Assembly: GCA_964479945.1 (NCBI GenBank)
Contig: CAYZNS010000002.1
Coordinates: 13,172-77,171 of the forward strand
Length of the DNA: 64,000 nt
Direction: 5' to 3'
Source: an uncultured Candidatus Saccharibacteria bacterium
GTDB lineage: Bacteria > Patescibacteriota > Minisyncoccia > Ryanbacterales > 2-02-FULL-48-12
The stretch's first letter is position 1. The number at the start of each line of letters is the position of its first letter. The translations under genes were made by a program, and so were the position numbers. The notes under the pieces were generated by a model. It saw only the letters and a program-made list of their open reading frames with translations. It ran no database searches and had not been told where the DNA came from. This document shows, in pieces, positions 1 to 34,172 of this stretch.

Positions 1-902
1 CCGCCGCACTTATTCTTAATCGCCCAACGGCGCCAGTTCAGCTGCTCGGGTGATAGCTCGTAACATGCGACAATATTTTTTTCGTATTCAGTAAGCGTCT
101 CCATAAATCGAGCTTTTTCTTCATCAGAACTGAATCGCAGTGAATATTCGGGCATCAAGTACCATGGGAGAAAAATCAGCTCAAAATCATTTTCATTTGC
201 CGCCGCTTCTTCAACCATTTTGAAGAAATACGCGCCATCACCGCCAAAGCCGTTAGCAGTTGATTCCAAAAACACCATCGTATTTGGATTTTCTGGTATT
301 GCTTGCATAACAGCATTCATGAGTTCCTCCGCATTTTCCCAAAAAGCAACCTCGGACCCATGGAAGCAATGAAGTGTTAGGCCCCGGCCTACTTTCACTT
401 TACTTGCGGTGGCAATCACAATTTTTGATCGCAATCCCGGTTCGGTGGTTCTTGTTTTCTCATCAGGATTTTCAAACACCATTTGTTTTCTGTTGTCGTA
501 TCTGCGAAGCGGTTTTTGATTGGGCGGAAGCATGTCATAGAAAAGCTTGGACATCTGAAATATCGCGTCCGTTGATTCGGGTTCGTGCGCAACGATTAGC
601 GAGTGGGAATTTTCATGCCGCGCGGTATGCTCAAAAATAAGTGATTCGCAAAGCGTTGACACTCCTTCTTGCCGAGCTTTAAGGACAATGACGCGAATCG
701 GTTTCCCTTTATCCCGAAGTTTCTGAATCGTTTCGTAAATTAGCTGTTGAGCGCGATTAAACTTCAGCAAAATGACTTGCTGGTCTTTTGTTTTAATGTG
801 GAGGTTCTTCTCAATATAAATCCTCGGCTCCTCATCATAGCGCCGCACGATTTCTTTGAGGGCCTCTTCTTCGTTATTGATTTTGTTTGGTATTGTTGTC
901 AT
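1..902 (-). CDS. phage terminase large subunit, N-terminal part (ORF runs off window start)
   Basis: Minus-strand ORF from ATG at 902 to the window edge with no stop. It is absent from the ORF track because it is incomplete. Translation MTTIPNKINNEEEALKEIVRRYDEEPRIYIEKNLHIKTKDQQVILLKFNRAQQLIYETIQKLRDKGKPIRVIVLKARQEGVSTLCESLIFEH... carries the KARQxGxST Walker-A-like signature typical of terminase_6-type large subunits. Confidence 0.6.
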   Translation of the reverse strand, partial: MTTIPNKINNEEEALKEIVRRYDEEPRIYIEKNLHIKTKDQQVILLKFNRAQQLIYETIQKLRDKGKPIRVIVLKARQEGVSTLCESLIFEHTARHENSHSLIVAHEPESTDAIFQMSKLFYDMLPPNQKPLRRYDNRKQMVFENPDEKTRTTEPGLRSKIVIATASKVKVGRGLTLHCFHGSEVAFWENAEELMNAVMQAIPENPNTMVFLESTANGFGGDGAYFFKMVEEAAANENDFELIFLPWYLMPEYSLRFSSDEEKARFMETLTEYEKNIVACYELSPEQLNWRRWAIKNKCG

Positions 903-1311
903 ATTCTTTTCTTATTTCTCTTAATTGTTGTTCGTAGGAAAGATCGATCAGACCGAGATTTCCTTCATAACGCAGTGGTTGGGTTGGTTTACCGAGCAGT
1001 CGCTCGAGAATAGCAAGTACGGCCCGTAACTTTACTGCATCACTCGTGCTTGCCATTAACCCAAGAAGCATCCGAGCGGCAGTTTTGATTTCTCGGCGCA
1101 GTTCATCCAGCGCCTCCTGCTCTCGAAATTCGTTTTGCGAATCGCGGTATTCTTTGTACGCGTCAGCGAGCAACCCGCCTTCGGCAAACCATTTTTTGAT
1201 CGTATCAACAGGAACCTTTAGTGTTCGGGCGAGCATGGCATAATTTTCTCCTTCGTAGCGAAGACGGATCGCGTCCTGACATTTTTTACCTTGTGGATCG
1301 TATTTAGGCAT
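874..1311 (-). CDS. phage terminase small subunit-like / HTH DNA-binding protein
   Basis: 145-aa ORF immediately upstream of and overlapping the terminase large subunit. It has an N-terminal helix-turn-helix-like segment (LARTLKVPVDTIKKWF) and is charged and coiled. Gene order small then large terminase is the classical packaging module. Confidence 0.4.
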   Translation of the reverse strand: MPKYDPQGKKCQDAIRLRYEGENYAMLARTLKVPVDTIKKWFAEGGLLADAYKEYRDSQNEFREQEALDELRREIKTAARMLLGLMASTSDAVKLRAVLAILERLLGKPTQPLRYEGNLGLIDLSYEQQLREIRKEYDNNTKQNQ

Positions 1312-1340
1312 TTTAGTGCTTCTTGGTGCCGCTTGGTGCG

Positions 1341-2075
1341 CTATTTTGGCATTTCCATTGATTTTGAAATGACCTCTTTGCTTCCAACCAATGCGTCAAA
1401 TGATTCTTTTTCCATTTTTCCCGCATGCGCTCGTCTGTCTTTTAAGTCCTCCAGCGCGCGCTTTTTCGCGCAGTAATCTTCGTATGCTCGTATGTCGCCA
1501 ATCGCCCACCCGTATGCTGGCGAATCGTCTCTGACCCACCTTCTTGAAATTGCGCGTATCTCAAGGAGGTATTTGGTCAAAGACGCGTGCGAAAGTCCAA
1601 CGATATCATTGCGTATCCTTCCCGACATTCTGCTTTCTGGAAATCTATATTTTCCAAACTCCTGCGCGGGGATAACTTCTTTATCTTCGCCGTAATATGA
1701 GAGCGGATGCTTTAGTGGTTTTTTCTCTAAATTTTTGAGCATCTGTTCAAACTCTTTAATTTCTTCATCGGTATACGAAGTTTTCTGAAATCCCGGTTGG
1801 TGCTTTTCATCTTTGTCGAAGATCTCAATATTCGATGTTCTCAATAGATTGCCGCGCCACTCTATTTGCACGGGGCGATTTTTACTGGTGAGTACATCCA
1901 TTATTTTTTCGACCTCTTCGTTGGAAGGATAATATTTTATGACCACGAATTTTCCTTCCTCATTTTTAGTTGTGTAATGAATTATTTTGTTCATATTTTT
2001 ACGACTCGCTCTGTTCGAGCAATCATTTTTTCCAAGTTTTCGTCTATATACTTGTGTACGGTTTCCAATGTCCAT
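1341..2075 (-). CDS. hypothetical phage-module protein
   Basis: 244-aa ORF. It overlaps the next ORF by 85 bp, so the true start is probably an internal Met. No recognisable motifs. Confidence 0.3.
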   Translation of the reverse strand: MDIGNRTQVYRRKLGKNDCSNRASRKNMNKIIHYTTKNEEGKFVVIKYYPSNEEVEKIMDVLTSKNRPVQIEWRGNLLRTSNIEIFDKDEKHQPGFQKTSYTDEEIKEFEQMLKNLEKKPLKHPLSYYGEDKEVIPAQEFGKYRFPESRMSGRIRNDIVGLSHASLTKYLLEIRAISRRWVRDDSPAYGWAIGDIRAYEDYCAKKRALEDLKDRRAHAGKMEKESFDALVGSKEVISKSMEMPK

Positions 2076-2797
2076 TTGACCTCCAAATTTTTATCAAGCC
2101 ATTCCATAACTTCAGCAATACGGTTATCGGCATATCCTTTTAGCATTCCTGCAGCTCGCAAATCCCTCTTTATTCCCGAATTAAACTGATCCCTATTCTC
2201 AAATCGGAATTTTTTATGGAGATAGTAAAGCGCGATAATATGAAGGTCGCGTCTGTTTGCCGAAAGCATTTCTTTTAACTTATCTTCAAGACGCCATACC
2301 GCATCGGCGTTAGCCGATGCAATTTGGGTTTTCTTCAATGTGTTTACTTCAACCTTAGGTTCCTTATGCGGCAACTGGTGCCTCTGGTTTTTTGTCGTTA
2401 TTTGCCTCTGGGTAGTGTCGTGAGATGCCTCTGGTTTCCCAAAGGCATCAGTTGCCTCTGGCTTTTTCCACTCACTTCGATCAAGCAAGTAGTAAATGTT
2501 GTTTTTGAATTTTTTAGTTTCCCAATCCCTCTCGCGCTCTACAAAAATGATGTTCCATTTCTCAAGTTTTCTGATATAATTTCTCACCGTTCTTTCGCCA
2601 ATATTCAGTTCCTTGGCAATAAGTCGGTTGGATGGAAAGCATTTTTGACTGATATCCGCGTGCCTGCATAAGCTGACATAAATCGCAGTACCAATAGGCC
2701 CGAGAAATCGCGCAAAACCATTCAAATAATCATTATCGAGATAAAACCATCCTCGCTGGCGTTTATCTCGTATCTTAAAGGTTGCAGAGTCCTTCAT
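1991..2797 (-). CDS. winged-helix DNA-binding protein (phage replication/regulation module)
   Basis: 268 aa with an HTH segment LIAKELNIGERTVRNYIRKLEKWNII and a basic N-terminus. Sits in the phage-like gene block. Confidence 0.35.
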   Translation of the reverse strand: MKDSATFKIRDKRQRGWFYLDNDYLNGFARFLGPIGTAIYVSLCRHADISQKCFPSNRLIAKELNIGERTVRNYIRKLEKWNIIFVERERDWETKKFKNNIYYLLDRSEWKKPEATDAFGKPEASHDTTQRQITTKNQRHQLPHKEPKVEVNTLKKTQIASANADAVWRLEDKLKEMLSANRRDLHIIALYYLHKKFRFENRDQFNSGIKRDLRAAGMLKGYADNRIAEVMEWLDKNLEVKWTLETVHKYIDENLEKMIARTERVVKI

Positions 2798-3304
2798 GGT
2801 TTTGTTTGTTTTCTTTTTTTTCTTCAGGATCAGGCAAGGAAAGAAGTAAATCCCAAAGTTTTCTTAATTTTTCGTTTTTATCTGGAACTTCTTTATAAGC
2901 AACTTCTACCTGGAAGTTCGGCGTTCGTTTCTGCCGCATATATTTTGTTGCTTTTTTCAATGATCTCTTTTTTCAAGACCTCAAATGAAAAAAGAGATCG
3001 GCGTAAACAAAGAATGCACAGCTTAATGTGATCCTTTGTCGTCCCGACCTCTTCGGACGATGTCGCGGCTTGGGAGTTTTTTGTTAATTAATTTTTAATC
3101 TCCCAGACCGCGTGGATTATTCGATTTTTTACTTACGCTTCTGCTGTTTAGCAAAAGCGATACCTTTTCTGATCCTTGAGCGGTGTTCTTCTCTTATGAA
3201 CTCTCCAATCGCCTCAAGGAGCGACTGCAGAAATTTTTCTTTCGCATCCATAATTTTTCTACCTTTAATCTTTATGAATCACGCCCGGACCTCACGGGGG
3301 AAAT

Positions 3305-3838
3305 TCATTCCAACGGTTTCTGATTTAAAGTTTTCAGAATATCGTTGACAATATCGTTAACACTGACTTGCAATACGATTCCCATGCCACCCTGTTCGTT
3401 ATAAGCCAAAAGAATCATTTCATTAATGTTTTTATCCCCGTCAGAATTAAAGTAAAATCTATCTTTAAGATTCGTACTTAAAAATACTTTATGCCCAAGT
3501 GCCATTTGTTCTTTGACAAAATCAGACATTGACACCTCCCTTTCTTTCAACCAACTATAAAGATTTTTTAAATCAACGAACGGCAAACCAGTTTTCCGAA
3601 GTTTTGAAATTATGGCTAGCTGAATAGCGTTGGTGCCGGTGAACCTTCGCCAGCGCCAAGTTTCTGTTGATTCTCGCTTTTGAGCCGGCAAAATACCTTT
3701 CACATCCCAGTCATTAAGTTGCCGGTAAGTAAGTCCGCAGATCTCCTTTGTTTCTCTGGCAGTAAGCGTATTAGAGAGCAAGCTTTCCAAAATACCCCGC
3801 CTGAGCTCATATACTTCTTTAGTTTTTTGTTTAATCAT
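3305..3838 (-). CDS. MerR-like HTH protein
   Basis: 177 aa. N-terminal TARETKEICGLTYRQLNDWDVKGIL resembles the MerR-family HTH. Confidence 0.35.
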   Translation of the reverse strand: MIKQKTKEVYELRRGILESLLSNTLTARETKEICGLTYRQLNDWDVKGILPAQKRESTETWRWRRFTGTNAIQLAIISKLRKTGLPFVDLKNLYSWLKEREVSMSDFVKEQMALGHKVFLSTNLKDRFYFNSDGDKNINEMILLAYNEQGGMGIVLQVSVNDIVNDILKTLNQKPLE

Positions 3839-13716: not shown

Positions 13717-14151
13717 TCAAAAATCGTCCATAATTCTCAAAACCTCATCGGGATAATTTGGATTGATTATTCCATTGTAATTCCACAACCTCTCGTAGGT
13801 TGTTTTGTTTTTGTAGTAGTCAGCGGTTCTCGGATTGAATCCGCAAAGGTTCGCGCCAACGATTTCAATCGCTTTTTCGACACTCTCAAAATCCGCTCGG
13901 CATGAAGCCCAGCCGAACGGATTATTACCGCACGCTTGTTTTCCGCCGGATGATTCCCGAACCGCAATTGCCGGCAATAATCGCCAGTCCATATCGCACC
14001 GATCAGCGGCTTCCACAAATTCGGTGCCATACCCAGCGAGTGGCATGTCTCGCTCGGCAAAGTAGCGGTCTATTCTCGCCATTCGTTCGTCAGGTATCAC
14101 ACAGGTCGGCTTGGTCTCGAATCGTTCGCCACAGGGGCAACCACGGGGCAA
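13717..14151 (-). CDS. Rpf/transglycosylase-like domain protein
   Basis: AVRESSGGKQACGNNPFGWAS resembles the transglycosylase-like (CESGG...W) motif. The true start may be the internal MARIDRY. Confidence 0.4.
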   Translation of the reverse strand: MPRGCPCGERFETKPTCVIPDERMARIDRYFAERDMPLAGYGTEFVEAADRCDMDWRLLPAIAVRESSGGKQACGNNPFGWASCRADFESVEKAIEIVGANLCGFNPRTADYYKNKTTYERLWNYNGIINPNYPDEVLRIMDDF

Positions 14152-14161
14152 CCCGCTAATA

Positions 14162-14186
14162 CAAAACCGCCTTTCGGCGGGTTTTG
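14162..14186. terminator. rho-independent terminator aaaaccgcc-tttc-ggcgggtttt
   Basis: Perfect 8-bp stem with flanking A and T runs. Lies downstream of the hsdS stop on the minus strand. Confidence 0.6.
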
Positions 14187-14360
14187 CATCGCAACGAGCA
14201 TTATTCTCTTTATACCATGACTTTGGGGCGTCCCCTTCTCAAGGGTTCAAACTTCAACGAGCCTAAAACCATTTGAAACTTAAGCCCCTCATTCGTGTAC
14301 ATTGCTACAAAGACTTTAAGTTTATTGCGAATTTTTGCCATATGTATTTCGATATGATAC

Positions 14361-14380
14361 CCCTTTTTAGCCGTTCTGTA
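14361..14380. repeat. direct repeat DR-L (ccctttttagccgttctgta), a remnant copy of the rnhB 3' end
   Basis: 20/20 identical to 21595..21614. Read on the minus strand it encodes ...IQNG*, compared with ...VQNG* for the intact rnhB end. Confidence 0.7.
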
Positions 14381-14436
14381 TATCCCGCGCGCATATTTGT
14401 CCGTAAAATAGGCAATTTTTTGCCATTCTACTACTC

Positions 14437-14982
14437 CTATATTTCCTCCAAAACCTGATCGATTTTTCCCTCCATAAGCTCAATTAAGCGGCGGTTGGCG
14501 GTGATGATTTCTTCTTCTTTTTCCGCTTCGGCGGCGAGCTGTTTTTGGATTTCAATTGGCGGAAAAGGGATTTGCAAGTTTTTTACGAACGATAGATTTG
14601 CCATTTTGTATTTGTTATCGCTACCGACAAACCGGTCATGCAGCATACCAAGCGCATAAAATAAAAATTTTGAATCTAAATCCTTTTCATTTATTGGCGA
14701 TAGAGATGCAATGTTCTGATTTGTGCAAAAGTCAAAAGTTACATATCCAGTTTTTCCAATAGTTGCTCCGACAAGAGCAACTATTGCCGTGTTTGCATGA
14801 ATCAACTTTGCCGATGAATTATTTAGACCTTTTTTCGATATGTATGTTTTGGGGTTAGTAATTATCAAATCTTTACATACTTCTGATTTCAACCAAGGTA
14901 CTTCTGGTGGTTCATAGTATTCTTTTATTTTTGTGTCCGGGGTACCACCTGATTTTACTTCGCAAACTTTCCCCAATTCCAC
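14437..14982 (-). CDS. hsdS: type I restriction-modification specificity subunit, half-size (single TRD)
   Basis: 181 aa. TRD-like N-terminal region plus the conserved IPFPPIEIQKQL segment and a coiled C-terminus. Confidence 0.7.
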   Translation of the reverse strand: MELGKVCEVKSGGTPDTKIKEYYEPPEVPWLKSEVCKDLIITNPKTYISKKGLNNSSAKLIHANTAIVALVGATIGKTGYVTFDFCTNQNIASLSPINEKDLDSKFLFYALGMLHDRFVGSDNKYKMANLSFVKNLQIPFPPIEIQKQLAAEAEKEEEIITANRRLIELMEGKIDQVLEEI

Positions 14983-15004
14983 CCACTCAACATCTTTTAA
15001 TTTT

Positions 15005-16915
15005 CTAAGCGACTGGCCAAAATAGCGTCTCTCTCTCTAGATTTTTGATAATTTCTTTGGCGTGCTTGATGGAATTTTCCTTCGCCTCAATTTGCTCCAC
15101 GATTTCATTTTGCACGTCTAAAGGCGGGAGTGGGATTTTGATTTCATAAAAATGATCAATGTTCAGATTCTTTTGCGCACCGCCACGGGCACACATAAAA
15201 ATTTCTTCCTGCCGCTGCAATAAAATTTTCCCAACAAAATCCTTGCTCAACTTATCTTGATATTCGGATTTAACTGAAAAAGTTCCGCCGGAATCCATAA
15301 GCCAAAATTTTTCAGGCACATATCGCACACAGTGCTCTGCCATGGCAAATCGAGCAATTAAGTAGTCATTTTCTCGATTAAATTTGTCTGTTCTAAAACT
15401 TTCTCCACCGCCGCCATAGACAGGATATTTTGTACCGCGATTTCCATGTTTTGTGATTCTTTCTCCAAAATTTAGCTTGATCAGTTTCCCCAATTCAATC
15501 ATTGGCCACTTTTCATTTTTTACAGCAGCAACGTCTCTGTATCTTTCGCTGGTTAAACTGTATTCACCGCTTTCAGCAATTTTTTCTTTTTTAACCCAAA
15601 GCGCAAGAGTACTTTCTCCCGCCTGCGCCGAAGCTTCGACGGGCAGGTGTTTTTTGCCATTCTTCCACGCGTCTAAAATCGCCAATGTTTCCGGCAGATC
15701 GTTTTTATCAATCTTCCGTCTTTGCGCGCCGAGATCAAAGCCGTCGTTTTCTACCTTTACAAACAAAATCTCATCGCTCTTTTTGGCAAGCTGATTATCA
15801 AAAAAGAGAATACTTGTTTTTACATTCCCTTTGCCGCCGGGTTTGGCAAACACGCCTTGCGGCAAGGAGACGACGGCATACAAGCCATCTTCAACTAACT
15901 TTTTCCGTAATTCTTTATATGCCGAATCATTCCTAAAAATCACTCCTTCCGGCACGATTATACCCGCCCGTCCCTTGATGTTGAGGTGCTCCAAAATATA
16001 ATCAACAAACAACACCTCACTGCGCGTGGCTTGCACGGAAAAACGCTTGTGGGGGCGAATACCGCCCTTTGGCGTCATAAACGGCGGATTGGCGAGGATT
16101 ACGTCAAAGGTATCGTCCCAGCGATCCTCATACGTCAACGTGTCGTACTCGTATATTTTCGGATTGGGGAAATGGTGCAAGTACATATTCACGATGGCGA
16201 TCCGCATCATTCCCGGATCAATGTCGTAACCGACAAAATTACTCATCATTTTTTGCTTTTCTTCCGGTGAAAGGCGTTTTTCCGCGCTCGTCGGCTCGCC
16301 CGATGGGTCTTTGCCGTCGTGCTGGCGTAAAATGTGTTTGTACGCGGAAATCAAAAATCCGGCCGTGCCGCAAGCGGGGTTCAAAATTGTTTCGTTTTTC
16401 TTCGGCGCGACAACTTCAACGATAAAATCAATAATATGGCGCGGCGTGCGAAATTGTCCGGCTTCTCCCGAAGTGCCTATAACATTCAGCAGATATTCAT
16501 AGGCGTCGCCCAAGTCCTCACTGTGGTCAAAAATAAATCCGTCAATTTCTTTCAAAAATAAATTTAATGTTTGAGCGTCGTTATATGGCAATGCCGCACT
16601 CTTAAAAATATCCCTAAAAAGTTGCGGGATGTGTGAATTTTTGGACATATTCGTGATGGCTTGCACATACAGATCAAGCCGCTCGGCTCCAGAAAGCCGT
16701 TTATCCAAAAGTTTGGTCCAGCTGTATTTGGCAAAATCCTCCACAAAATATTGCGCTTTCAACCCGACTCCTTCATTTTCTTTATCCATATCGTCCATAA
16801 ACTTGTAAATCAGCGCAATCGTAATCTGATCAACCTGTAATTGTGGGTTTGGAATTCTCCCAACAAGAATATCGCGCGCCGAGTCAATTTTTCGTTTTGT
16901 GATTTGGTCAAGCAT
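15005..16915 (-). CDS. hsdM: type I R-M N6-adenine DNA methyltransferase fused to a C-terminal target-recognition domain
   Basis: HsdM N-terminal domain, then the MTase core (ILNPACGTAGFLISAY ... ILANPPF). The C-terminal ~200 aa are HsdS-like (TRD plus IPLPPLDVQNEIVEQIE). Confidence 0.8.
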   Translation of the reverse strand: MLDQITKRKIDSARDILVGRIPNPQLQVDQITIALIYKFMDDMDKENEGVGLKAQYFVEDFAKYSWTKLLDKRLSGAERLDLYVQAITNMSKNSHIPQLFRDIFKSAALPYNDAQTLNLFLKEIDGFIFDHSEDLGDAYEYLLNVIGTSGEAGQFRTPRHIIDFIVEVVAPKKNETILNPACGTAGFLISAYKHILRQHDGKDPSGEPTSAEKRLSPEEKQKMMSNFVGYDIDPGMMRIAIVNMYLHHFPNPKIYEYDTLTYEDRWDDTFDVILANPPFMTPKGGIRPHKRFSVQATRSEVLFVDYILEHLNIKGRAGIIVPEGVIFRNDSAYKELRKKLVEDGLYAVVSLPQGVFAKPGGKGNVKTSILFFDNQLAKKSDEILFVKVENDGFDLGAQRRKIDKNDLPETLAILDAWKNGKKHLPVEASAQAGESTLALWVKKEKIAESGEYSLTSERYRDVAAVKNEKWPMIELGKLIKLNFGERITKHGNRGTKYPVYGGGGESFRTDKFNRENDYLIARFAMAEHCVRYVPEKFWLMDSGGTFSVKSEYQDKLSKDFVGKILLQRQEEIFMCARGGAQKNLNIDHFYEIKIPLPPLDVQNEIVEQIEAKENSIKHAKEIIKNLERETLFWPVA

Positions 16916-16917
16916 GG

Positions 16918-17913
16918 TTATTTTTTCTTGATGGACTTTGATAGTTTTTTCACTTCCCTGTCAAAATCAGAAATGTGCTTTTTGTCTTGCTTTTTTTTAT
17001 ATTTGGAAAATTCACTTTCCGCTTTTTCATTCGCTTTTTCCGCGCTCACCTTGCCCGCGTTCAGCAAAAGTTTTTTCTCGCTTAATTTTAGAAATTCATC
17101 AAGCTTTACCGCCCATTCGGCCATTTTCATCGGGCGTTCGTTGGTTGCTTGAAGTTCGGCAAAGTCCAAATACAAGGACACAATAAGGTTAAGTTGCTTG
17201 AGTTCTTTTTCAGAAAGATAATTTTTGGCAATTTTTGCGTCTCCGGCAGTAATATAGTTCCCCTTAAAATTTGAGAGTCCCATCATCGGTTTTTTGCTGT
17301 CGGCGCGCAAAGATACTATTTCCGCGGCGGTATATCCGTGCACGGCATAGTGCATTTTGTTTTGTACGGTAGCAAAAAACTTTTTTGTAAGCTCATCGTC
17401 TTTCCGATAGTCAATGCTGGTTGCGTAAATGTCCGTAACTTTTTGATAAAAATTACGCTCGCTACTGCGAATATCGCGGACGCGCTGGAGCAATTCTTCA
17501 AAGTACCGCGCTCGCTCTCCGCCTTGCTTCATCCGCTCATCGTCCAATGCAAAACCCTTAATAATATAATCACGAAGCCGCGCCGTCGCCCAAATACGGA
17601 ATTGAGTAGCTCGTTTTGAATTAACGCGGTAACCCAAAGCAATAATAACGTCCAAATTATAATGTTTTGCATCATATTTTTTCCCATCGTCGGCAGTTAT
17701 TAAGAAATTCTTAATAACTGATTTTTCGCCCAATTCGCCTGTTTCGAAGATATTTTTAAGATGTTGATTGATTGCGGATGTGGTAACCTCGAACAACTCC
17801 GCCATTAATTTTTGAGTAAGCCAAACAGTTTCATCTTGAAAATAAACATTAACCTTTGCTTGGCCGTCTTCGCTTTGATAAATGACGATCTGTGATTGTT
17901 GATTTTTTTTCAT
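16918..17913 (-). CDS. RhuM-family protein embedded in the R-M operon
   Basis: 331 aa. The N-terminal region IVIYQSEDGQAKVNVYFQDETVWLTQKLMAELFEV matches the RhuM family that commonly sits between hsdR and hsdM (recalled from memory). Lys-rich tail. Confidence 0.55.
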   Translation of the reverse strand: MKKNQQSQIVIYQSEDGQAKVNVYFQDETVWLTQKLMAELFEVTTSAINQHLKNIFETGELGEKSVIKNFLITADDGKKYDAKHYNLDVIIALGYRVNSKRATQFRIWATARLRDYIIKGFALDDERMKQGGERARYFEELLQRVRDIRSSERNFYQKVTDIYATSIDYRKDDELTKKFFATVQNKMHYAVHGYTAAEIVSLRADSKKPMMGLSNFKGNYITAGDAKIAKNYLSEKELKQLNLIVSLYLDFAELQATNERPMKMAEWAVKLDEFLKLSEKKLLLNAGKVSAEKANEKAESEFSKYKKKQDKKHISDFDREVKKLSKSIKKK

Positions 17914-17917
17914 AGTC

Positions 17918-19516
17918 TTATTTCATGTATTGATTAACCGGCACATAATCTTTTACATATTCCGGCACTTTATTGCGCCAGCCATTTAATGATTGATATT
18001 CTTCCATGGTAAAAGCACCATAATCACGTGGGAACCTACCAGCATTAATTTCTTGCCTGAATCGCTCATCCCCAACATATACTTTAAGAAAATTTCGGAT
18101 ATGCGGCACATATTTATTTTCCGGCTTGTAGATTGAAATAAATTTCTCAACCTCGTCTTCCAATTTTTCGTCTTTAGATTTGAAAGCGTCAATCAAGCCG
18201 AATACGCGCTCCAGAAATTCGCGCCATGATAAACGGCGGTCAAGATTTTCGCTTTTGCGAATTTTTTCAAGGTTAAGGAAAAGCTCCGGCTTATCTTCGT
18301 ATTTGTCGCGCAGAATTTTTACGGCTTTTTCCCATTGTTCCTGATCCACCGCCTGTTTAACTTCTTCGTCATTTTGGATTTTCTTTCTCGCTTCTTCAAA
18401 TAATTTGCGATCAACCTTCATACCCTCCAATCCGATCGCATATTCTTTGATGATTTTTTCCTTGTCCGGCTCAAAAATCGTAATCTCATCAATATCAACA
18501 GGGCCGGGGCCATCTCCACCAGAACCGCCCTTTTTTATCGGCAATTTTATGGCTTCGTCATAATCAAACTTCTCTTCAAAGTATTCAAAGTTGGCGAAGA
18601 AATCGAAAAACTTGAATTTGTCTTTGATGACTTTTCGCACTTCGCCGTCCTCGTCCTTATATTCAAACGTATATTTTCGAGTGCCGCGGCCTTTCATCTG
18701 CACAAAATCTGTCGGCGAAAAAACAGGACGAAGCAAGGCGAGGTTCAAAATATCTTCGCAGTCATAGCCAGTCGTCATCATACCGACGGTAACGCAGATC
18801 CTTGTTTTACTTGATTTGTAGCCGGGCAGAAATTTTGTGTGGCCGCCCAAGGTATTGTTGGCGAAATTGATCGTCATTTGCGGGGAGCCCTGAATGTTTG
18901 AGGTGATTTGAACGGCAAAATCAGAACTGTATTTGTCTGGCCATACTTGATGAGCTTGTCTGTTTAAGGTTTGCGTAATCTTGGAAGCGTGTTTTTGGCT
19001 GACGCAGAAAATAAGCGTCTTGCCCATCTCGCCGCTTATCGGATCTTTCAAGGCATTTTCAATAATGGATTTGCAGAACACCTGATTTGTTTTGTCGGAA
19101 AAGAATTTTTTCTCAAAGTCGCGCTGGAAAAAAGTTTCTTCGGTTTCTTCGCCTTCTTCATTTTCAACCATTACCGCATAGCCCTTTTCCGAAAGAAGCT
19201 CCGTGGTAATGTCGGTACGCGCGTCAACGGCAACAGGATTGATGAGGTAGCCGTCTTTTACGCCATCAAGCAAGGTATATCTGAACGTCGGCTCGCCGCT
19301 CGGACAGCCAAAAGTCGTGTAGGTATCCAATAGTTGCCTGCGTTCCCACGCGCGCGGATCATTTGCTGAGAGTTTTTGAGAATCAACATTTTTTAGATAA
19401 TCTTTCGGCGTTGCAGTAAGTCCGAGTTTATATCCGACAAAGTATTCAAAGACGGCGCGCCTGTTCTTTGCCGTCGAGCGGGTCTTTCTCCTCTTTCTTT
19501 GCTTCCAAAACGACAA
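17918..19516 (-). pseudogene. hsdR: hsdR C-terminal fragment (helicase motifs III-VI and C-terminal domain)
   Basis: Begins at LGLTATPKDY (helicase motif III) and contains QMKGRGTR (motif VI). It lacks the nuclease core and helicase motifs I-II. Confidence 0.65.
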
Positions 19517-19736
19517 ATGGAAATCCCTTTTCGTCTAGCAGTAGGAAATCAATAAATCCGCCTTTGGTACTTTCAAAATCTTCGCCAAAAGCGTCAATGT
19601 CTTTCTTTGCGATTTTTACGTTTGGTTCAAGCTGGATATTTGCCGATTCTTTTTCGTCATCAAAAAATCGCCACCCTACATCTTCAAGCAGTTTGTTAAT
19701 TTTAATTCTCGCCTTTGCTTCTTTGGAATTTGCCAT
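19446..19736 (-). pseudogene. hsdR: hsdR N-terminal fragment (HsdR_N nuclease motif only)
   Basis: 96 aa with RIKINKLLEDVGW and the D...EAK nuclease motif (IDFLLLDEKGFPFVVLEAKK). It overlaps the C-terminal fragment by 71 bp in a different frame, indicating an internal deletion plus frameshift of ~400 codons. Confidence 0.55.
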
Positions 19737-19740
19737 AAAT

Positions 19741-20208
19741 TTACTTTGCGGTTCTTTCGCCGTTTAATATCCTCTCGAACGCTTCGAGGTTGCCCATGGC
19801 GTCATTAACAGGATTGTGGTCATGTGCTGTAACTCGCAGCTTTTTCCATGAGCTCGCGTCGGTAAAGTCACCGACGAGCCCGGCATAAAAATCGCCGATT
19901 CTCCTCGCGGAATGACCGAATGGGTTTTTGCCGAGAAATAGATGAAAATAATAATTTATGAATTGCCAGTCGTAAGCCGGATTGTCGCTCACGAATAGCG
20001 GTCTGAATCCTTTCTCTATCACCGATAAAATCCATGTATCGAAATTTTCGAATGTTTCTTTTTTCGCCCCTATTCCGTGGAATGCTTGTTTTGAAGGATA
20101 AGCGATTGCGCCAAATTCAAATGACGCCGAGTCGTTCAATGTCGGTGCGGGCCCGTGTCCTTCACAATCCACGAATATTAAGTTTTTAATGGCGATTTCC
20201 TTTGGCAT
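19741..20208 (-). CDS. DEDDh-type 3'-5' exonuclease (DnaQ-like fold)
   Basis: Start chosen at MPKEIAIKNLIFVDCEG (DxE motif I). C-terminal motif HDHNPVNDAMGNLEAF (H...D). The start overlaps the upstream ATPase stop by 4 nt, suggesting translational coupling. Confidence 0.5.
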   Translation of the reverse strand: MPKEIAIKNLIFVDCEGHGPAPTLNDSASFEFGAIAYPSKQAFHGIGAKKETFENFDTWILSVIEKGFRPLFVSDNPAYDWQFINYYFHLFLGKNPFGHSARRIGDFYAGLVGDFTDASSWKKLRVTAHDHNPVNDAMGNLEAFERILNGERTAK

Positions 20209-20210
20209 AT

Positions 20211-21482
20211 TTATTTGTTGGGCTTTTCCAATAGCCATTTCCAAAGCGGCTTTAACTGTATGGTTTTTCCGTCTCGTTTTACTTCGCGCTCTTCATCCCA
20301 TGTAAGTACGGTCAACTTTGACACTTTCAGTTCTTCTCCAGCTTCGGCTAAAGATTTCACTTCGCGCTGTTCAACATCGGGATTTCTTAAGTCGTAAGAA
20401 ATCTGAATAAGTTCGGATGTCTCGTATCCGTACCGAATCGCAAAATCGACCTCTCGATCGTTACGGGTCTTGTAATAAAATAATTCTCGGTTCGGCTCAA
20501 ATCCTCTTTTTACCAATTCGGTAAAGACAAGATTTTCCATGAGCTTGCCGTTATCAGGAGAATGCTGAACGGCTTTGGAAGCAACAAAACCGTTATCTAC
20601 CGTGTATATCTTTTTGGGTGAACGCAGGCGTTCACTGGCTTTCGCGGAAAATCCGGAAAGGGAAAAAACGACGTATGCTTCCTCGAGATATTTAAGATAC
20701 CGCTCAAGCGTCACATTACTCTTGAATTTCAAAACGTTTGCGAGCTTCCGGAAACTATACTGACTGGAAACATTGTTTATTAAAAATGTTCCGAGCTGAT
20801 CTATCTGCTCGGAAAAACGAACCTTGTGGCGCTTCACCACGTCCTTAAAAAGGAGTGCATCGAAAAGCACATCCAAATATCCGCGCGGATGCTGATTCTT
20901 TATCACCACTTCGGGAAAGCCGCCGAATGCCATATACTGCTCCAGCAATTTCAAAAGCTCTGATTTCTGGTCAAACTCTGAGAAGTTTTTAGCTTTTAGA
21001 AATTCTTGAAAATCAAACGGCATTATTTCTATGGGCATATGTCTCCCCGTCAAATGTGTCGCAAGCTCCATTGATAAGAGATTCGCGTTCGATCCGGTTA
21101 TCACGAGATTGTATCCCTGGCGGTGCAGGCGGTTGGCGAACAGTTCCCAGCCTCGAAGGTTTTGTATTTCGTCGAATAAGGCGAGTTTGGTATCGCCGTA
21201 GAATTTGTGTAACTCATCCACGAGCTCGTATAAATCCAATTTTTCTCCGACCAACGCCGGATCGTCAAAATTAAAATAGAGAAAAGGCTTGCCTCTTAGG
21301 AGCATGAGGGAAAAGACGGACTTGCCGGCGCGGCGCGGGCCGAGCACCACCTTAATCAAAGGCGAGGACATCCATTCTGAACCCTTCGCCAGCTTAGTCC
21401 TTTCCACATAGGTCAAATTAGCCAAGGCTACTTTTTCTTGGTTTTGTTTGGATATAACCTCTTTTAACAGGCTTTTTTGCAT
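20211..21482 (-). CDS. AAA+ ATPase (AAA_14-like P-loop GPRRAGKS) with C-terminal DUF4143-like region
   Basis: 423 aa. Walker A GPRRAGKS and Walker B LALFDEIQ. The C-terminal part (EVDFAIRYGYETSELIQISY) resembles DUF4143, which I recall as a restriction-endonuclease-like fold. Confidence 0.6.
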   Translation of the reverse strand: MQKSLLKEVISKQNQEKVALANLTYVERTKLAKGSEWMSSPLIKVVLGPRRAGKSVFSLMLLRGKPFLYFNFDDPALVGEKLDLYELVDELHKFYGDTKLALFDEIQNLRGWELFANRLHRQGYNLVITGSNANLLSMELATHLTGRHMPIEIMPFDFQEFLKAKNFSEFDQKSELLKLLEQYMAFGGFPEVVIKNQHPRGYLDVLFDALLFKDVVKRHKVRFSEQIDQLGTFLINNVSSQYSFRKLANVLKFKSNVTLERYLKYLEEAYVVFSLSGFSAKASERLRSPKKIYTVDNGFVASKAVQHSPDNGKLMENLVFTELVKRGFEPNRELFYYKTRNDREVDFAIRYGYETSELIQISYDLRNPDVEQREVKSLAEAGEELKVSKLTVLTWDEEREVKRDGKTIQLKPLWKWLLEKPNK

Positions 21483-21594
21483 AGTATTTTAGTCGTATTA
21501 AACATTATATGCCTTTTTTGTTCATTACAATTATTATATTAAACATAAGGGGAAAATGCAATAACCGTGAATTATTATTCTCATTTTACTCTCA

Positions 21595-21614
21595 CCCTTT
21601 TTAGCCGTTCTGTA
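21595..21614. repeat. direct repeat DR-R (overlaps the rnhB stop codon)
   Basis: Identical 20-mer to DR-L. On the minus strand it encodes the RNase HII C-terminus GCVQNG*. Confidence 0.7.
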
Positions 21615-22230
21615 CACACCCGTTAAACGTACGCCGGTGGTGGGGCGTGAGGCCGAATCTTGCTATGGATTCCCGGTGCTCCGCTGTGCCATATCCTTTG
21701 TTCCGCTCAAACCCGTAGCGCGGGTATGTATGGTGCAGGCGCGTCATATAGCGGTCGCGGTGCACTTTTGCCACAATGGAAGCCGCGGCAATCAAAGGCA
21801 CGCGCTCATCACCCTTTATGATCGTCTGCTGGTTTTTATATGCGGGAGGAGCGGCTAGACCGCCGTCTAGTAGAATTATGAATCTGGAATTATGAATTAT
21901 GGGAAATGCCTTGAGAAGTTTCCGCAATGACCTCATAACGGCGACAGAACAAGCCCATCTGATTCCGTTTTTATCAATGACAGAATGAGAAACGGAACTA
22001 ATGGTACACGGAAAGTTTTTTCTAATTATTTTATCCCACCCTTCCCTCTGTTTTGATGAAAGTCTTTTTGAATCGCGTATATTTTTTAACCCATAATTCA
22101 TAATTCCAGATTCATAATTCACCATTGCGGCCACTGCCGCAATGGTTACCGGTCCCGCCAACGGCCCCCGCCCCACTTCGTCTATTCCTATAATCCACAC
22201 CTGCGTGGCGCGTCCCTTGACTGTATCCAT
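21601..22230 (-). CDS. rnhB: ribonuclease HII
   Basis: GIDEVGRGPLAGPV, DSKRLS and LLDGG motifs. Start set at MDTVKG. Contains two in-frame insertions encoded by a perfect 31-bp inverted repeat. Confidence 0.85.
   Translation of the reverse strand: MDTVKGRATQVWIIGIDEVGRGPLAGPVTIAAVAAMVNYESGIMNYGLKNIRDSKRLSSKQREGWDKIIRKNFPCTISSVSHSVIDKNGIRWACSVAVMRSLRKLLKAFPIIHNSRFIILLDGGLAAPPAYKNQQTIIKGDERVPLIAAASIVAKVHRDRYMTRLHHTYPRYGFERNKGYGTAEHRESIARFGLTPHHRRTFNGCVQNG
21873..21903. repeat. 31-bp inverted-repeat arm 1 inside the rnhB CDS (gaattatgaatctggaattatgaattatggg)
   Basis: Exact reverse complement of 22090..22120. Translated in frame as PIIHNSRFII. Confidence 0.8.
22090..22120. repeat. 31-bp inverted-repeat arm 2 inside the rnhB CDS
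   Basis: Translated in frame as NYESGIMNYG. The arms are separated by exactly 186 bp (62 codons) containing the catalytic DSK region. Confidence 0.8.
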
Positions 22231-22257
22231 ATCACTATGGTACGCTATACATATCGT

Positions 22258-22617
22258 ATGACTCAACAAGTTCTCTCGTTTTTCCAGATAGGCGTGGCCG
22301 TTTTGCTGGGTGCCGCCATTCTACTTCAGCAAAAAGGAGCGGGCCTTTCCAGCGCTTTCGGCGGAGAAGGCGGCTTTTACCGTACGAAACGGGGATTTGA
22401 GAAAATTCTTTTGGTATCCACCATAATCCTTTCCATTTTATTCGTTGCGACAGGCATTGTGCGCATTGTTATGGCTCCCAATATGCCTGCCGCTCCGGTC
22501 ATTCCCGGTGATAGCGGTATCATCCCTTCATTTGAACTTGGCGCTGAAGAGTCACCGACGCCGCTCATAAGTCCGGAAGTTGAAATTTCGGGCGAAACGG
22601 CGCCTTCTCAAGAATAA
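22258..22617 (+). CDS. secG: preprotein translocase subunit SecG
   Basis: MTQQVLSFFQIGVAVLLGAAILLQQKGAGLSSAFGG matches the SecG N-terminal TM-Gly-rich signature. Divergent from rnhB. Confidence 0.7.
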   Translation: MTQQVLSFFQIGVAVLLGAAILLQQKGAGLSSAFGGEGGFYRTKRGFEKILLVSTIILSILFVATGIVRIVMAPNMPAAPVIPGDSGIIPSFELGAEESPTPLISPEVEISGETAPSQE

Positions 22618-24385: not shown

Positions 24386-24469
24386 GCCGAAGTGGCGGAA
24401 TTGGCAGACGCGCTAGCTTCAGGAGCTAGTATCCGCAAGGATGTGAGGGTTCGAATCCCTCCTTCGGCA
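24386..24469 (+). tRNA. tRNA-Leu(CAG), class II with long variable arm
   Basis: Manual cloverleaf: acceptor gccgaag/cttcggc, D-arm gcg-gaattggcaga-cgc, anticodon arm ctagc-ttCAGga-gctag, 15-nt variable arm, T-arm gaggg-ttcgaat-ccctc, discriminator A. CCA is not encoded. Confidence 0.85.
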
Positions 24470-24597: not shown

Positions 24598-24687
24598 TAT
24601 GTCATTGCGAGCAAAGCGAAGCAATCCCATGAATATCTTAAAAAATTACGGGATTGCCGCGTCGCTTCGCTCCTCGCAATGACAACA
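24598..24687. repeat. family-A palindromic MITE-like element, core-only copy (tgtcattgcgagcaaagcgaagcaatccc ... gggattgc...ctcgcaatgaca)
   Basis: Imperfect ~90-bp palindrome. It yields the spurious ORFs SLRAKRSNP.../VIASEAKQ... and sits between the tRNA block and rnj. Confidence 0.7.
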
Positions 24688-28473: not shown

Positions 28474-28608
28474 GTAATTACGAAACTCCAAAAACATTGT
28501 CATTGCGAGGAGCGAAGCGACGTGGCAATCCCGTAATTTTCAAGGTATTCACGAGATTGCTTCGCTTTGCTCGCAATGACAATGGGTAGTTTCGTAATTC
28601 AAAGTAAG
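28474..28608. repeat. family-A palindromic element, full-length copy with terminal inverted repeats aattacgaaact/agtttcgtaatt
   Basis: Core gtcattgcgagg...ctcgcaatgac plus the conserved outer segments ttacgaaactc(c)aaaaa and gtttcgtaattcaaagtaag, which are shared with the 63527 copy. Confidence 0.7.
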
Positions 28609-34114: not shown

Positions 34115-34172
34115 CTGCTGTCAAACACTAAGTGTCTGACAAGCTTGTCAGACACTTAGTGTTTGACAGCAG
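34115..34172. terminator. perfect 58-bp palindrome (29-bp arms) between convergent recR and rplU; overlaps the last 17 nt of rplU
   Basis: Every position was checked manually: position i pairs with 34287-i across 34115-34172. It contains two copies of the TGTCAAACACT half-site motif. The right arm encodes TAVKH* of L21. Confidence 0.7.

What the first reader, a model, noticed from the sequence alone, without database searches (positions are those of the whole stretch)
14361..21614. Defense island inserted at the rnhB 3' end, bounded by 20-bp direct repeats, with no integrase
A perfect 20-mer (ccctttttagccgttctgta) occurs at 14361 and again at 21595, where it is the genuine stop region of rnhB. 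The left copy is a decayed duplicate of that gene end (encodes IQNG* versus VQNG*). This is the attL/attR signature of site-specific integration into a protein-gene 3' end.

The cargo is a type I R-M system plus an ATPase/exonuclease pair. No integrase remains. The island is therefore either immobilised or was mobilised in trans.
Basis: seen in the sequence. Interest (0 to 1): 0.6.

Follow-up and report, generated by a model that had tools for sequence, protein, structure and literature searches.

The report
Integrase-less defence island with 20-bp repeats
A 7.2-kb stretch of foreign, partly decayed anti-phage genes in a tiny candidate-phyla (Patescibacteria) bacterium really is bracketed by two identical 20-base repeats, but the far repeat is part of a mobile promoter module for the gene mnmA, not a worn copy of the rnhB gene end.

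Summary
CCCTTTTTAGCCGTTCTGTA occurs exactly twice, at 14361 and 21595. Similarity stops sharply on both sides, and independent assemblies show the same structure. The right copy covers the last four rnhB codons, the stop and 6 nt.

The 7.2 kb between the copies is foreign: GC is 42% against 48-50% in the flanks. It carries no integrase or transposase.

The cargo is an AAA_14/DUF4143 ATPase, a DnaQ-like exonuclease, RhuM and a type I R-M system. The hsdR gene is a remnant, and hsdM is frameshifted in other assemblies.

The left copy is not a decayed rnhB end. It is the -35/spacer of a promoter in front of a 14-codon mnmA stub. A distant relative (L108) has the same site (18/20) between the same ATPase-led cargo and its mnmA.

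All close relatives have rnhB followed by rpmF. The "13717 gene" is a truncated pseudogene at the left end of a second element inserted into mnmA. No empty site or circular junction was found.

Best reading (about 0.4): a recombination scar from insertion of an ATPase-cargo circle at the rnhB-stop/mnmA-promoter junction, with the enzyme supplied in trans. Main rival: tandem element accretion plus an internal deletion.

The parts
21595..21614 (-). Right copy of the 20-mer (gene sense TACAGAACGGCTAAAAAGGG). It covers the last 4 codons of rnhB (VQNG), the TAA stop and 6 nt beyond.
14361..14380 (-). Left copy of the 20-mer. It forms the last 4 nt of the -35 hexamer plus 16 nt of the spacer of a sigma-70-like promoter (TATACA-17-TATCAT) in front of the mnmA stub. 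It is orthologous to L108 2210-2229.
21601..22230 (-). rnhB (RNase HII, 209 aa from the ATG). A core gene, divergent from secG as in all relatives.
21483..21594 (-). ATPase upstream region. 21483-21575 is conserved with the ATPase gene in other Patescibacteria and holds a promoter-like TTGCAT-17-TATAAT (my reading; it falls below the scan's threshold). 21576-21594 (19 nt) is unique to this genome.
20211..21482 (-). AAA_14/DUF4143 ATPase (PADLOC candidate PDC-S01). Homologues of 85-98% aa identity occur across many Patescibacteria lineages.
19741..20244 (-). DnaQ-like (DEDDh motifs read by eye) exonuclease, 167 aa, overlapping the ATPase 3' end by 34 nt. Same-species contigs break or diverge within or just after it.
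17918..19736 (-). hsdR remnant (EcoAI family). Two overlapping frames match profile positions 23-84 and 320-650 of 768, so about 235 profile positions between the two matches are missing (by position most likely the ATP-binding motor domain; inferred, not tested).
16918..17913 (-). RhuM-family gene (Pfam Virulence_RhuM 2e-108; PADLOC PDC-S05).
15005..16915 (-). hsdM fused to one target-recognition domain (636 aa). It is intact here. A frameshifted allele occurs in L007 and L090, with all differences in 16079-16223; L097 shows the same 278+357 aa split.
14437..14982 (-). Half-size hsdS with a single target-recognition domain (181 aa).
14300..14341 (-). mnmA 5' stub, MAKIRNKLKVFVAM. It is homologous to the MnmA N-terminus of L108 (MTRIWNKH...KRKVFVAISGGVDS). 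No mnmA body exists in the window.
14213..14299 (-). Conserved element end ("X-rest", TACACGAATGAGGGGCTTAAGTTTCAAATGG...) abutting the mnmA stub. It is 89% nt identical in L109-L113 and L115. The same junction is seen in 19 clusters of short ORFs.
14167..14180 (-). Intrinsic-terminator-like hairpin (CCGCCGAAAGGCGG followed by a T run).
13717..14160 (-). Glucosaminidase-like gene remnant. It lacks the signal-peptide part of a 169-aa family and carries a +2 frameshift (GTGTG).

Best explanation
The interval is the cargo of a decayed, integrase-less defence array led by an AAA_14/DUF4143 ATPase gene. It lies between rnhB and a displaced 5' stub of mnmA.

The 20-mer is the -35/spacer part of the promoter module in front of mnmA, which here also supplies the last codons and stop of rnhB. 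The two identical, sharply bounded copies are most simply the attL/attR-like scar of a conservative recombination. In that event a circular ATPase-plus-cargo molecule inserted into the rnhB-stop/mnmA-promoter junction.

The recombinase is not encoded in the island, so it must have acted in trans. One candidate is the neighbouring element that split mnmA, which carries Rep-like and MerR-like genes at 874-3838; its integrase, if it has one, lies outside the window.

Afterwards the cargo decayed: hsdR was lost and hsdM is frameshifted in some strains. The slot behind the ATPase-exonuclease pair kept exchanging cargo.

Shown: the repeat, its sharp edges, the foreign composition, the absence of a recombinase, the identity of the left copy as a promoter module, conserved linkage of ATPase, cargo, 20-mer and mnmA in L108, and absence of the island from relatives' rnhB loci.

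Inferred: that the repeat arose by site-specific recombination, the circular intermediate, and supply of the enzyme in trans.
For: - The 20-bp repeat is perfect and unique, and no similarity extends beyond it.
- It is reproduced in independent assemblies.
- Island GC is 42.2% against 48-50% in the core flank.
- The ATPase is 85-98% aa identical across distant Patescibacteria, while RnhB's nearest relative is 73% identical. That indicates horizontal spread.
- Relatives have rnhB followed by rpmF, with no island.
- In L108 unrelated cargo abuts the same core position (GACAGAACGGCTAAAAAAGG) and is followed by a homologous -10 box and mnmA leader. This is what a shared attachment core predicts.
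- Identity of 20/20 between the two copies contrasts with 18/20 between this genome and L108. Copies made by one event would be identical; two old independent modules would more likely differ.
- There are no terminal inverted repeats and no transposase.
Against: - No integrase or integrase remnant is present, and there is no room for one.
- No empty site and no circular junction turned up in the viral or JGI metagenome collections. The only hits were occupied contigs of the same species.
- The sequences just inside the core on the cargo side are unrelated in the window and L108, so no conserved arm sites exist on that side.
- L109-L115 carry the ATPase cassette and the mnmA leader without any 20-mer. 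L098-L107 carry the cassette next to htrA without it. The ATPase therefore spreads without this site.
- The model requires mnmA to have lain directly downstream of rnhB before the insertion. No relative shows that arrangement.
- Whether L108 has a second core upstream of its ATPase cannot be seen, because the contig ends there.
Confidence: 0.4

Rival explanations
1. Tandem accretion plus deletion. A family of Patescibacteria elements integrates into the first codons of mnmA (around KVFVA). Each element supplies a replacement promoter, leader and 5' end at its right end, with the ATPase and cargo lying just inside that end.

On this view the native arrangement here was rnhB, promoter, mnmA. One such element inserted, then a second one (left end at 14299). 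An internal deletion then removed everything from just after the native 20-mer to 19 nt upstream of the ATPase.

The two 20-mers would then be the native promoter and the element-borne copy, not an attachment site.
For: - The mnmA-stub/X-rest junction is present in the window and in L109-L113 and L115. It also appears in 19 clusters of short ORFs.
- In L110 a 2.5-kb segment (X-rest, terminator, glucosaminidase remnant, ATPase, 203-aa gene, leader) is bracketed by imperfect repeats of the mnmA start.
- MnmA is only 45% aa identical between L108 and L110. Yet the leader plus first ~25 codons are ~95% nt identical, and identity drops right after the SGGVD codons.
- The 5' edge of the 20-mer coincides with the cargo/module boundary in L108.
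- The model explains the missing integrase.
Against: - It needs a deletion whose endpoint happens to leave exactly the shared block.
- It predicts some divergence between a native and an imported module. L108 differs at 2 of 20 positions, but the two copies here are 20/20.
- It also needs an unobserved native rnhB-mnmA adjacency.
Confidence: 0.25
2. Short-homology (Campbell-type or illegitimate) single crossover. A circular or linear fragment carrying the ATPase and cargo shared 20 bp by descent with the rnhB/mnmA-promoter junction and integrated there through host recombination, with no dedicated recombinase.
For: - It gives the same product as site-specific integration: a direct repeat exactly as long as the shared block.
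- No recombinase gene is present.
- The promoter module travels with the ATPase cargo in other genomes, so a donor fragment could carry it.
Against: - From general knowledge, 20 bp is at or below the usual minimum for efficient RecA-dependent recombination.
- A donor carrying the module would normally share more than 20 bp (the -10 box and leader), which would give a longer repeat.
Confidence: 0.12
3. Chance repeat, or a conserved ancestral gene order. On this view the 20-mer is coincidental or a common motif, and the genes between the copies are native.
For: None beyond the lack of an empty site.
Against: - Expected matches in shuffles are 0.
- The motif is not dispersed in the window or in 1.56 Mb of related loci, apart from the orthologous L108 site.
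- Relatives lack these genes at rnhB.
- Composition and cross-lineage identity of the ATPase mark the segment as foreign.
Confidence: 0.03
4. Target-site duplication of a DDE transposon or IS-borne composite element.
For: A direct repeat flanks the segment.
Against: - There are no terminal inverted repeats at 14381 or 21594.
- There is no transposase.
- From general knowledge, 20 bp is far longer than usual target-site duplications.
Confidence: 0.02

Closest known systems
CIMEs (cis-mobilizable elements), e.g. those at the fda 3' end in Streptococcus thermophilus
   Same: Both are islands that have lost integration and transfer genes but keep attL- and attR-like direct repeats at the end of a protein gene. 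Both are thought to be moved by a related element's recombinase, often after tandem accretion. The definition is taken from ICEberg 2.0, PMC6323972. The S. thermophilus examples are from my own knowledge.
   Different: No cognate integrase-bearing element using this 20-mer is known. Activity of the sites is untested. The neighbouring element uses a different site (the mnmA codons). The repeat lies in a promoter that overlaps the gene's stop codon.
Pseudo-SCC / SCC-like elements at the rlmH (orfX) 3' end in staphylococci
   Same: They show short direct repeats overlapping the 3' end of a housekeeping gene, variable cargo that often includes R-M genes, elements without recombinase genes, and arrays of several elements at one site (own knowledge).
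   Different: SCC repeats are recognised by known Ccr serine recombinases, and the target gene is invariant. Here the enzyme is unknown, and rnhB is not the site used by the related cargo in other genomes.
SXT/R391 integration into the 5' end of prfC
   Same: This is an analogue for the second element seen here. It inserts into the first codons of a housekeeping gene and supplies a replacement promoter and 5' coding end (own knowledge for SXT; for mnmA).
   Different: No integrase was seen for the mnmA-targeting elements in the sequence available. This element concerns the left flank, not the 20-mer itself.
Defence hotspots and genomic islands without mobility genes, including the Patescibacteria island with a type I R-M system
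   Same: Variable defence cargo lies between conserved flanks and differs between strains. Patescibacteria islands carrying type I R-M systems have been reported in PMC12455944. Variation of the cargo here is shown.
   Different: Such hotspots usually lack a precise 20-bp flanking repeat. Here the conserved upstream flank is itself a horizontally spread defence-type ATPase.

Membership tests
Site-specifically integrated island (attL/attR; CIME type) | Direct repeats at both ends, one overlapping the target gene end | tested here: met
   Perfect 20-mer at 14361 and 21595. The right copy spans the rnhB stop.
Site-specifically integrated island (attL/attR; CIME type) | An empty site (one core copy, flanks joined) in a related genome or population | tested here: inconclusive
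   No contig with the predicted junction was found in the collections searched. RnhB relatives above 73% identity do not exist in the databases. More distant relatives have a different neighbour, rpmF.
Site-specifically integrated island (attL/attR; CIME type) | A cognate recombinase, in the island or in a related element using the same core | tested here: not met
   No recombinase domain in any island ORF. The 20-mer is absent from viral contigs. The neighbouring element uses the mnmA codons instead.
Site-specifically integrated island (attL/attR; CIME type) | The same core flanking related elements in other genomes | tested here: inconclusive
   L108 has the core (18/20) at the distal cargo boundary, but its contig ends before the proximal boundary. 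L109-L115 and L098-L107 carry the ATPase without the core.
Site-specifically integrated island (attL/attR; CIME type) | Excision or circularisation at the repeats | not testable with these tools
   This needs raw reads or an experiment.
Type I restriction-modification system | Intact HsdR with nuclease and both motor domains | tested here: not met
   Two overlapping frames cover only EcoAI-profile positions 23-84 and 320-650 of 768.
Type I restriction-modification system | HsdM with an N6-adenine methyltransferase domain | tested here: met
   N6_Mtase 5e-52 and MTase_I 3e-91. The gene is frameshifted in L007 and L090; L097 shows the same split gene calls.
Type I restriction-modification system | HsdS with two target-recognition domains | tested here: inconclusive
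   One domain is fused to HsdM (residues 467-628). One lies in a separate 181-aa half-subunit.
PADLOC candidate PDC-S01 (AAA_14 + DUF4143 ATPase) | Match to the family profile over the full length | tested here: met
   PDLC04787 2e-103 over residues 24-420; AAA_14 and DUF4143 above the Pfam cut-offs. A defence function has not been tested.
DDE transposon / composite transposon | Transposase, terminal inverted repeats and a short target duplication | tested here: not met
   No transposase, no inverted repeat at the ends, and a repeat of 20 bp.
Known structured RNA gene used as attachment site (tRNA, tmRNA and others) | Rfam or tRNA model match at either repeat | tested here: not met
   The only tRNA in the window is tRNA-Leu at 24386. 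Rfam gives only chance-level matches at the left junction and in L110 and L108.

The most novel reading that the evidence does not exclude
The ATPase gene and the mnmA promoter-leader module may be the two conserved borders of a cassette-exchange platform that circulates among Patescibacteria. Elements would insert into the first codons of mnmA and bring a replacement 5' end. Inside them, the 20-mer core next to the promoter would act as a second recombination site. Through it, defence cargo would be swapped in and out behind the ATPase without any island-borne integrase, loosely like an integron in logic.
Probability: 0.12. Interest if true: 0.7.

Novelty: new member of a known kind. Interest (0 to 1): 0.4.

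Why it matters
Mobile elements and defence islands are poorly described in Patescibacteria (the candidate phyla radiation). These organisms have tiny genomes and cannot be grown alone.

This locus shows three things:
- A horizontally spread AAA_14/DUF4143 ATPase that heads a slot of rapidly changing defence genes.
- A type I R-M system caught in the course of decay.
- Evidence for a family of elements that insert into the 5' end of mnmA and replace its promoter and first codons.

If the 20-mer proves to be a working recombination site, it would point to recombinase-in-trans mobilisation of defence cargo in these bacteria. As it stands, it is a well-documented example of a known kind of structure, an integrase-less island with flanking repeats.

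Tried and rejected
1. A decayed duplicate of the rnhB end. Rejected: there is no similarity beyond 20 nt, and the left copy has an orthologue in a promoter module of L108.
2. A chance or common motif. Rejected.
3. An ancestral gene order. Rejected: relatives have rnhB followed by rpmF.
4. A transposon target duplication. Rejected: no inverted ends and no transposase.
5. A tRNA or other RNA attachment site. Nothing found.
6. A search for attP or an empty site with the 20-mer. There were 0 hits in viral contigs and 2 in JGI metagenome contigs, both occupied contigs of the same species.
7. Exact-protein look-ups of RnhB, the 121-aa protein and HsdS gave only occupied contigs.
8. The X-rest sequence, the ATPase and the Rep-like protein against viral contigs: no relatives. 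The glucosaminidase-like protein gave one unrelated viral contig, L116.
9. A possible homology between the 20-mer region and the mnmA start region of L110, suggested by MAFFT, was not significant against shuffles (p 0.3-0.8). It was dropped.
10. Pfam on the short ORFs around the left copy: no hits.
11. The divergent 68-nt and 180-nt ends of L006 matched nothing else held.

Full report
**Observation**

The 20-mer CCCTTTTTAGCCGTTCTGTA occurs at 14361-14380 and 21595-21614 and nowhere else in the window, even with two mismatches. Shuffles give none. A census of exact repeats found 30 of at least 16 nt. Only 13 reach 20 nt, and the other twelve are palindromes or inverted pairs, internal repeats of one giant gene, or a dispersed intergenic repeat.

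The identity is exactly 20 nt. Local alignment of 150 nt on either side adds nothing.

On the minus strand the right copy reads GTA CAG AAC GGC TAA AAAGGG. That is the last four codons and stop of rnhB (Pfam RNase_HII 1e-33, NCBIfam RNase HII 6.5e-57).

Both copies and the whole arrangement recur at 99.8-100% identity in independent assemblies of the same species from several metagenomes: L001-L009, L090 and L097. The structure is therefore real.

**What lies between the copies**

All genes are on the minus strand and tightly packed.
- AAA_14/DUF4143 ATPase, 20211-21482 (PADLOC PDC-S01, 2e-103).
- A 167-aa exonuclease, 19741-20244, overlapping the ATPase by 34 nt. It matches a PADLOC effector exonuclease at 2e-20, and DEDDh-type motifs are readable in the sequence.
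- An hsdR remnant, 17918-19736.
- RhuM, 16918-17913.
- hsdM fused to one target-recognition domain, 15005-16915.
- A half-size hsdS, 14437-14982.

hsdR is dead. Two overlapping frames cover only positions 23-84 and 320-650 of the 768-position EcoAI-family profile.

hsdM is intact in the window. In L007 and L090 it is split by a 1-nt deletion at the catalytic motif; L097 shows the same 278+357 aa split. All 12 differences between L007/L090 and the window lie in one 145-bp patch, 16079-16223.

No ORF has a recombinase or transposase domain, and the intergenic spaces are too short to hide one. There are no inverted repeats at the ends.

GC is 42.2%, against 48-50% for rnhB and the core genes to the right.

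**Foreign origin**

RnhB has no relative above 73% identity in 5.8 billion proteins. The ATPase, in contrast, has scores of homologues at 85-98% identity. They are labelled Kerfeldbacteria, Taylorbacteria, Minisyncoccales, Paceibacterota and others.

At the DNA level a 1.37-kb cassette (21575-20210: 93 nt of promoter region plus the ORF) is 93.8% identical in L109-L113 and L115 (L114's contig begins at 21563), and 97% identical in L108 as far as that contig reaches. It is 77% identical in L098-L107. Homology stops at the ends of the cassette in each case.

What follows the ATPase differs every time:
- the exonuclease plus R-M here;
- an exonuclease remnant plus a 243-aa gene in L108;
- a 203-aa gene in L109-L115;
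- htrA in L098-L107;
- a 53-aa extension fused to the ATPase C-terminus in P0253 and P0254.

Variation exists within the species too. Contigs break at 19714 and at 20016-20050. L006 diverges from the window directly after the exonuclease gene, and again inside secG, while the 2.8 kb in between is 99.86% identical.

The ATPase therefore heads a slot of fast-changing cargo.

**Relatives at rnhB**

Six loci from relatives with RnhB at 57-73% identity (L010, L011, L092-L096) have secG divergent from rnhB, followed by rpmF and nusB; the contigs long enough also show rnc. L011 carries a 2-kb insertion between rnhB and rpmF.

In the window, rpmF-nusB-rnc lie at 63462-61396, behind a murG-like gene end (my reading of the translation). 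The rnhB 3' end is therefore a rearrangement breakpoint in this lineage.

**The left flank**

Downstream of the left copy, in gene sense, come in order:
- 19 nt;
- ATGGCAAAAATTCGCAATAAACTTAAAGTCTTTGTAGCAATG (14341-14300);
- TACACGAATGAGGGGCTTAAGTTTCAAATGG... ("X-rest");
- a terminator hairpin at 14180-14167;
- the 13717 ORF.

The first stretch is the N-terminus of MnmA. MAKIRNKLKVFVAM aligns with L108's MTRIWNKH...KRKVFVAISGGVDS, including nucleotides upstream of the ATG. It breaks off after codon 14, and no mnmA body exists in the window.

X-rest is 89% identical to a stretch in L109-L113 and L115, where it also follows a short mnmA start (MKVFVAT). An HMMER scan of 1.8 billion representatives found 19 clusters of short ORFs with the same junction...KVFVA(T/M)|YTNEGLKFQMVLGPLKFEP.... 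Several carry the long MnmA N-terminus in front.

The 13717 ORF belongs to a family of 169-aa secreted glucosaminidase-like proteins. Here the signal-peptide part is missing, and a GTGTG slip shifts the frame.

In L110 the segment from X-rest through terminator, a ~20-nt glucosaminidase remnant, ATPase, the 203-aa gene and the leader ends in an intact mnmA. It is thus bracketed by imperfect repeats of the mnmA start.

MnmA of L108 and L110 is only 45% identical. Yet the leader and first ~25 codons are ~95% identical at the nucleotide level, and identity collapses right after the SGGVD codons.

Together this indicates a family of elements that insert into the first codons of mnmA and bring a replacement promoter, leader and 5' end. 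The window holds the left end of one such element at 14299. That element runs leftwards through surface-protein genes to Rep-like and MerR-like genes at 874-3838.

**The left copy itself**

The promoter scan places TATACA-17-TATCAT at 14382-14354 on the minus strand. The 20-mer is the last four bases of the -35 hexamer plus 16 of the 17 spacer bases.

L108 has GACAGAACGGCTAAAAAAGG (18/20) followed by ATATAAT. This forms GTGACA-17-TATAAT, placed between the terminator of its 243-aa cargo gene and the mnmA leader. The match extends into the left copy's flank (23 of 26 nt), and none of 500 shuffles reached its score. A hit with two or fewer mismatches is expected about 0.005 times in the 1.56 Mb of loci held (my calculation).

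The order ATPase, cargo, 20-mer, mnmA start is thus conserved between this genome and a species whose MnmA is less than 50% identical to that of another carrier of the same cassette. The left copy is the copy in its usual context. It is not a worn rnhB fragment.

**How the duplication arose**

Two models fit. I could not separate them with the data reachable.

A circular ATPase-plus-cargo molecule recombined conservatively with a 20-bp core at the rnhB-stop/mnmA-promoter junction, leaving attL- and attR-like copies. The enzyme acted in trans.

In its favour:
- the perfect identity and sharp edges;
- the fact that unrelated cargo abuts the same core position in L108;
- 20/20 identity here against 18/20 between genomes.

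Against it:
- no recombinase, and no empty site or circle junction;
- no conserved sequence inside the core on the cargo side;
- the ATPase cassette occurs without the core in L109-L115 and L098-L107.

Model B proposes that the native order was rnhB, promoter, mnmA. Two mnmA-targeting elements inserted in tandem, the first carrying the ATPase, cargo and its own promoter module. A deletion then removed everything between the native 20-mer and the ATPase upstream region.

This explains the missing integrase and the module boundary. It needs a fortunate deletion and perfect identity between a native and an imported module.

Both models require mnmA to have lain downstream of rnhB before the events. 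No relative shows that.

I put model A at about 0.4, model B at about 0.25, and a short-homology crossover without a dedicated enzyme at about 0.12. Chance and a transposon origin are close to excluded.

**Comparison with known systems**

The structure works like a CIME: an island that has lost its integration and transfer genes but keeps attL and attR (definition in PMC6323972). It also resembles recombinase-less SCC-like elements at the rlmH 3' end (own knowledge).

Membership cannot be claimed. The repeat criterion is met, but the cognate recombinase and activity of the sites are not shown.

The mnmA-targeting element resembles SXT at the prfC 5' end (own knowledge). Genomic islands with type I R-M systems have been reported in Patescibacteria (PMC12455944).

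**Verdict**

The finding is a new member of a known kind. The modular ATPase-led cargo slot and the mnmA-targeting elements are the parts most worth following up.

Noticed in passing
window 21873-21903 and 22090-22120 (inside rnhB): A perfect 31-nt inverted repeat lies inside the rnhB coding sequence, with the arms 186 nt apart. The arms encode NYESGIMNYG and PIIHNSRFII. The pairing is kept (87-90% complementary, same spacing) in rnhB of relatives L092 and L094 but not L096. The motif occurs nowhere else in the window.
   Followed up: partly
window 16079-16223 (hsdM): All 12 differences between the window and same-species contigs L007 and L090 over about 18 kb fall in one 145-bp patch. They include a 1-nt deletion at the NPPF motif that frameshifts hsdM. 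This looks like a recombination or conversion tract rather than scattered mutation.
   Followed up: partly
window 14213-14341; L110 3280-3359; proteins P0375-P0393: An mnmA 5' stub is fused to a conserved ~80-130-nt sequence (translated as YTNEGLKFQMVLGPLKFEP...). The same junction appears in many Patescibacteria. It suggests a family of elements that insert into the first codons of mnmA and supply a new promoter, leader and 5' end.
   Followed up: partly
window 13717-14201: The gene left of the island is a remnant of a 169-aa secreted glucosaminidase-like family. Its signal-peptide region is missing, and a GTGTG +2 frameshift is present. Homologues of 80-87% identity are common, and many are also N-terminally truncated 109-aa forms.
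   Followed up: partly
window 61396-63462 versus 21601-22269: rpmF-nusB-rnc directly follow rnhB in every close relative. Here they lie 40 kb away behind a murG-like gene end (my reading of the translation). The conserved block trpS-RNase J-SBP-secG-rnhB has new neighbours on both sides.
   Followed up: partly
window 24600-24685, 28497-28581, 63510-63657: A dispersed palindromic intergenic repeat of about 86-150 nt (TGTCATTGCGAGC.AAGCGAAGCAATC...). One copy sits at the murG/rpmF junction.
   Followed up: no
window 874-3838: Mobile-element-like genes lie at the left edge: a replication-initiator-like protein (HTH_36 / DnaD-like PHROGs), a MerR-type HTH protein, and an HTH / small-terminase-like protein. 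No integrase is visible before the window ends.
   Followed up: partly
L006 (= L091) 1-179 and 2955-3022: A contig from another sample is 99.86% identical to the window from mid-secG through rnhB, the ATPase and the exonuclease. It is unrelated on both sides. That points to a recombinant strain or a different cargo after the exonuclease.
   Followed up: partly
L099, L100, L103 upstream of the ATPase; L098, L107: In another Patescibacteria lineage the space upstream of the homologous ATPase is either rpoD or a DruA/NurA/DUF87 gene set. About 0.7-0.9 kb of gene-free DNA lies before the ATPase in each case.
   Followed up: no
window 34115-34172; 49166-51500: A 58-nt perfect palindrome lies at 34115. 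Partial copies of its arm occur at 58882 and 53401. Long exact internal repeats lie in the 2285-aa gene.
   Followed up: no
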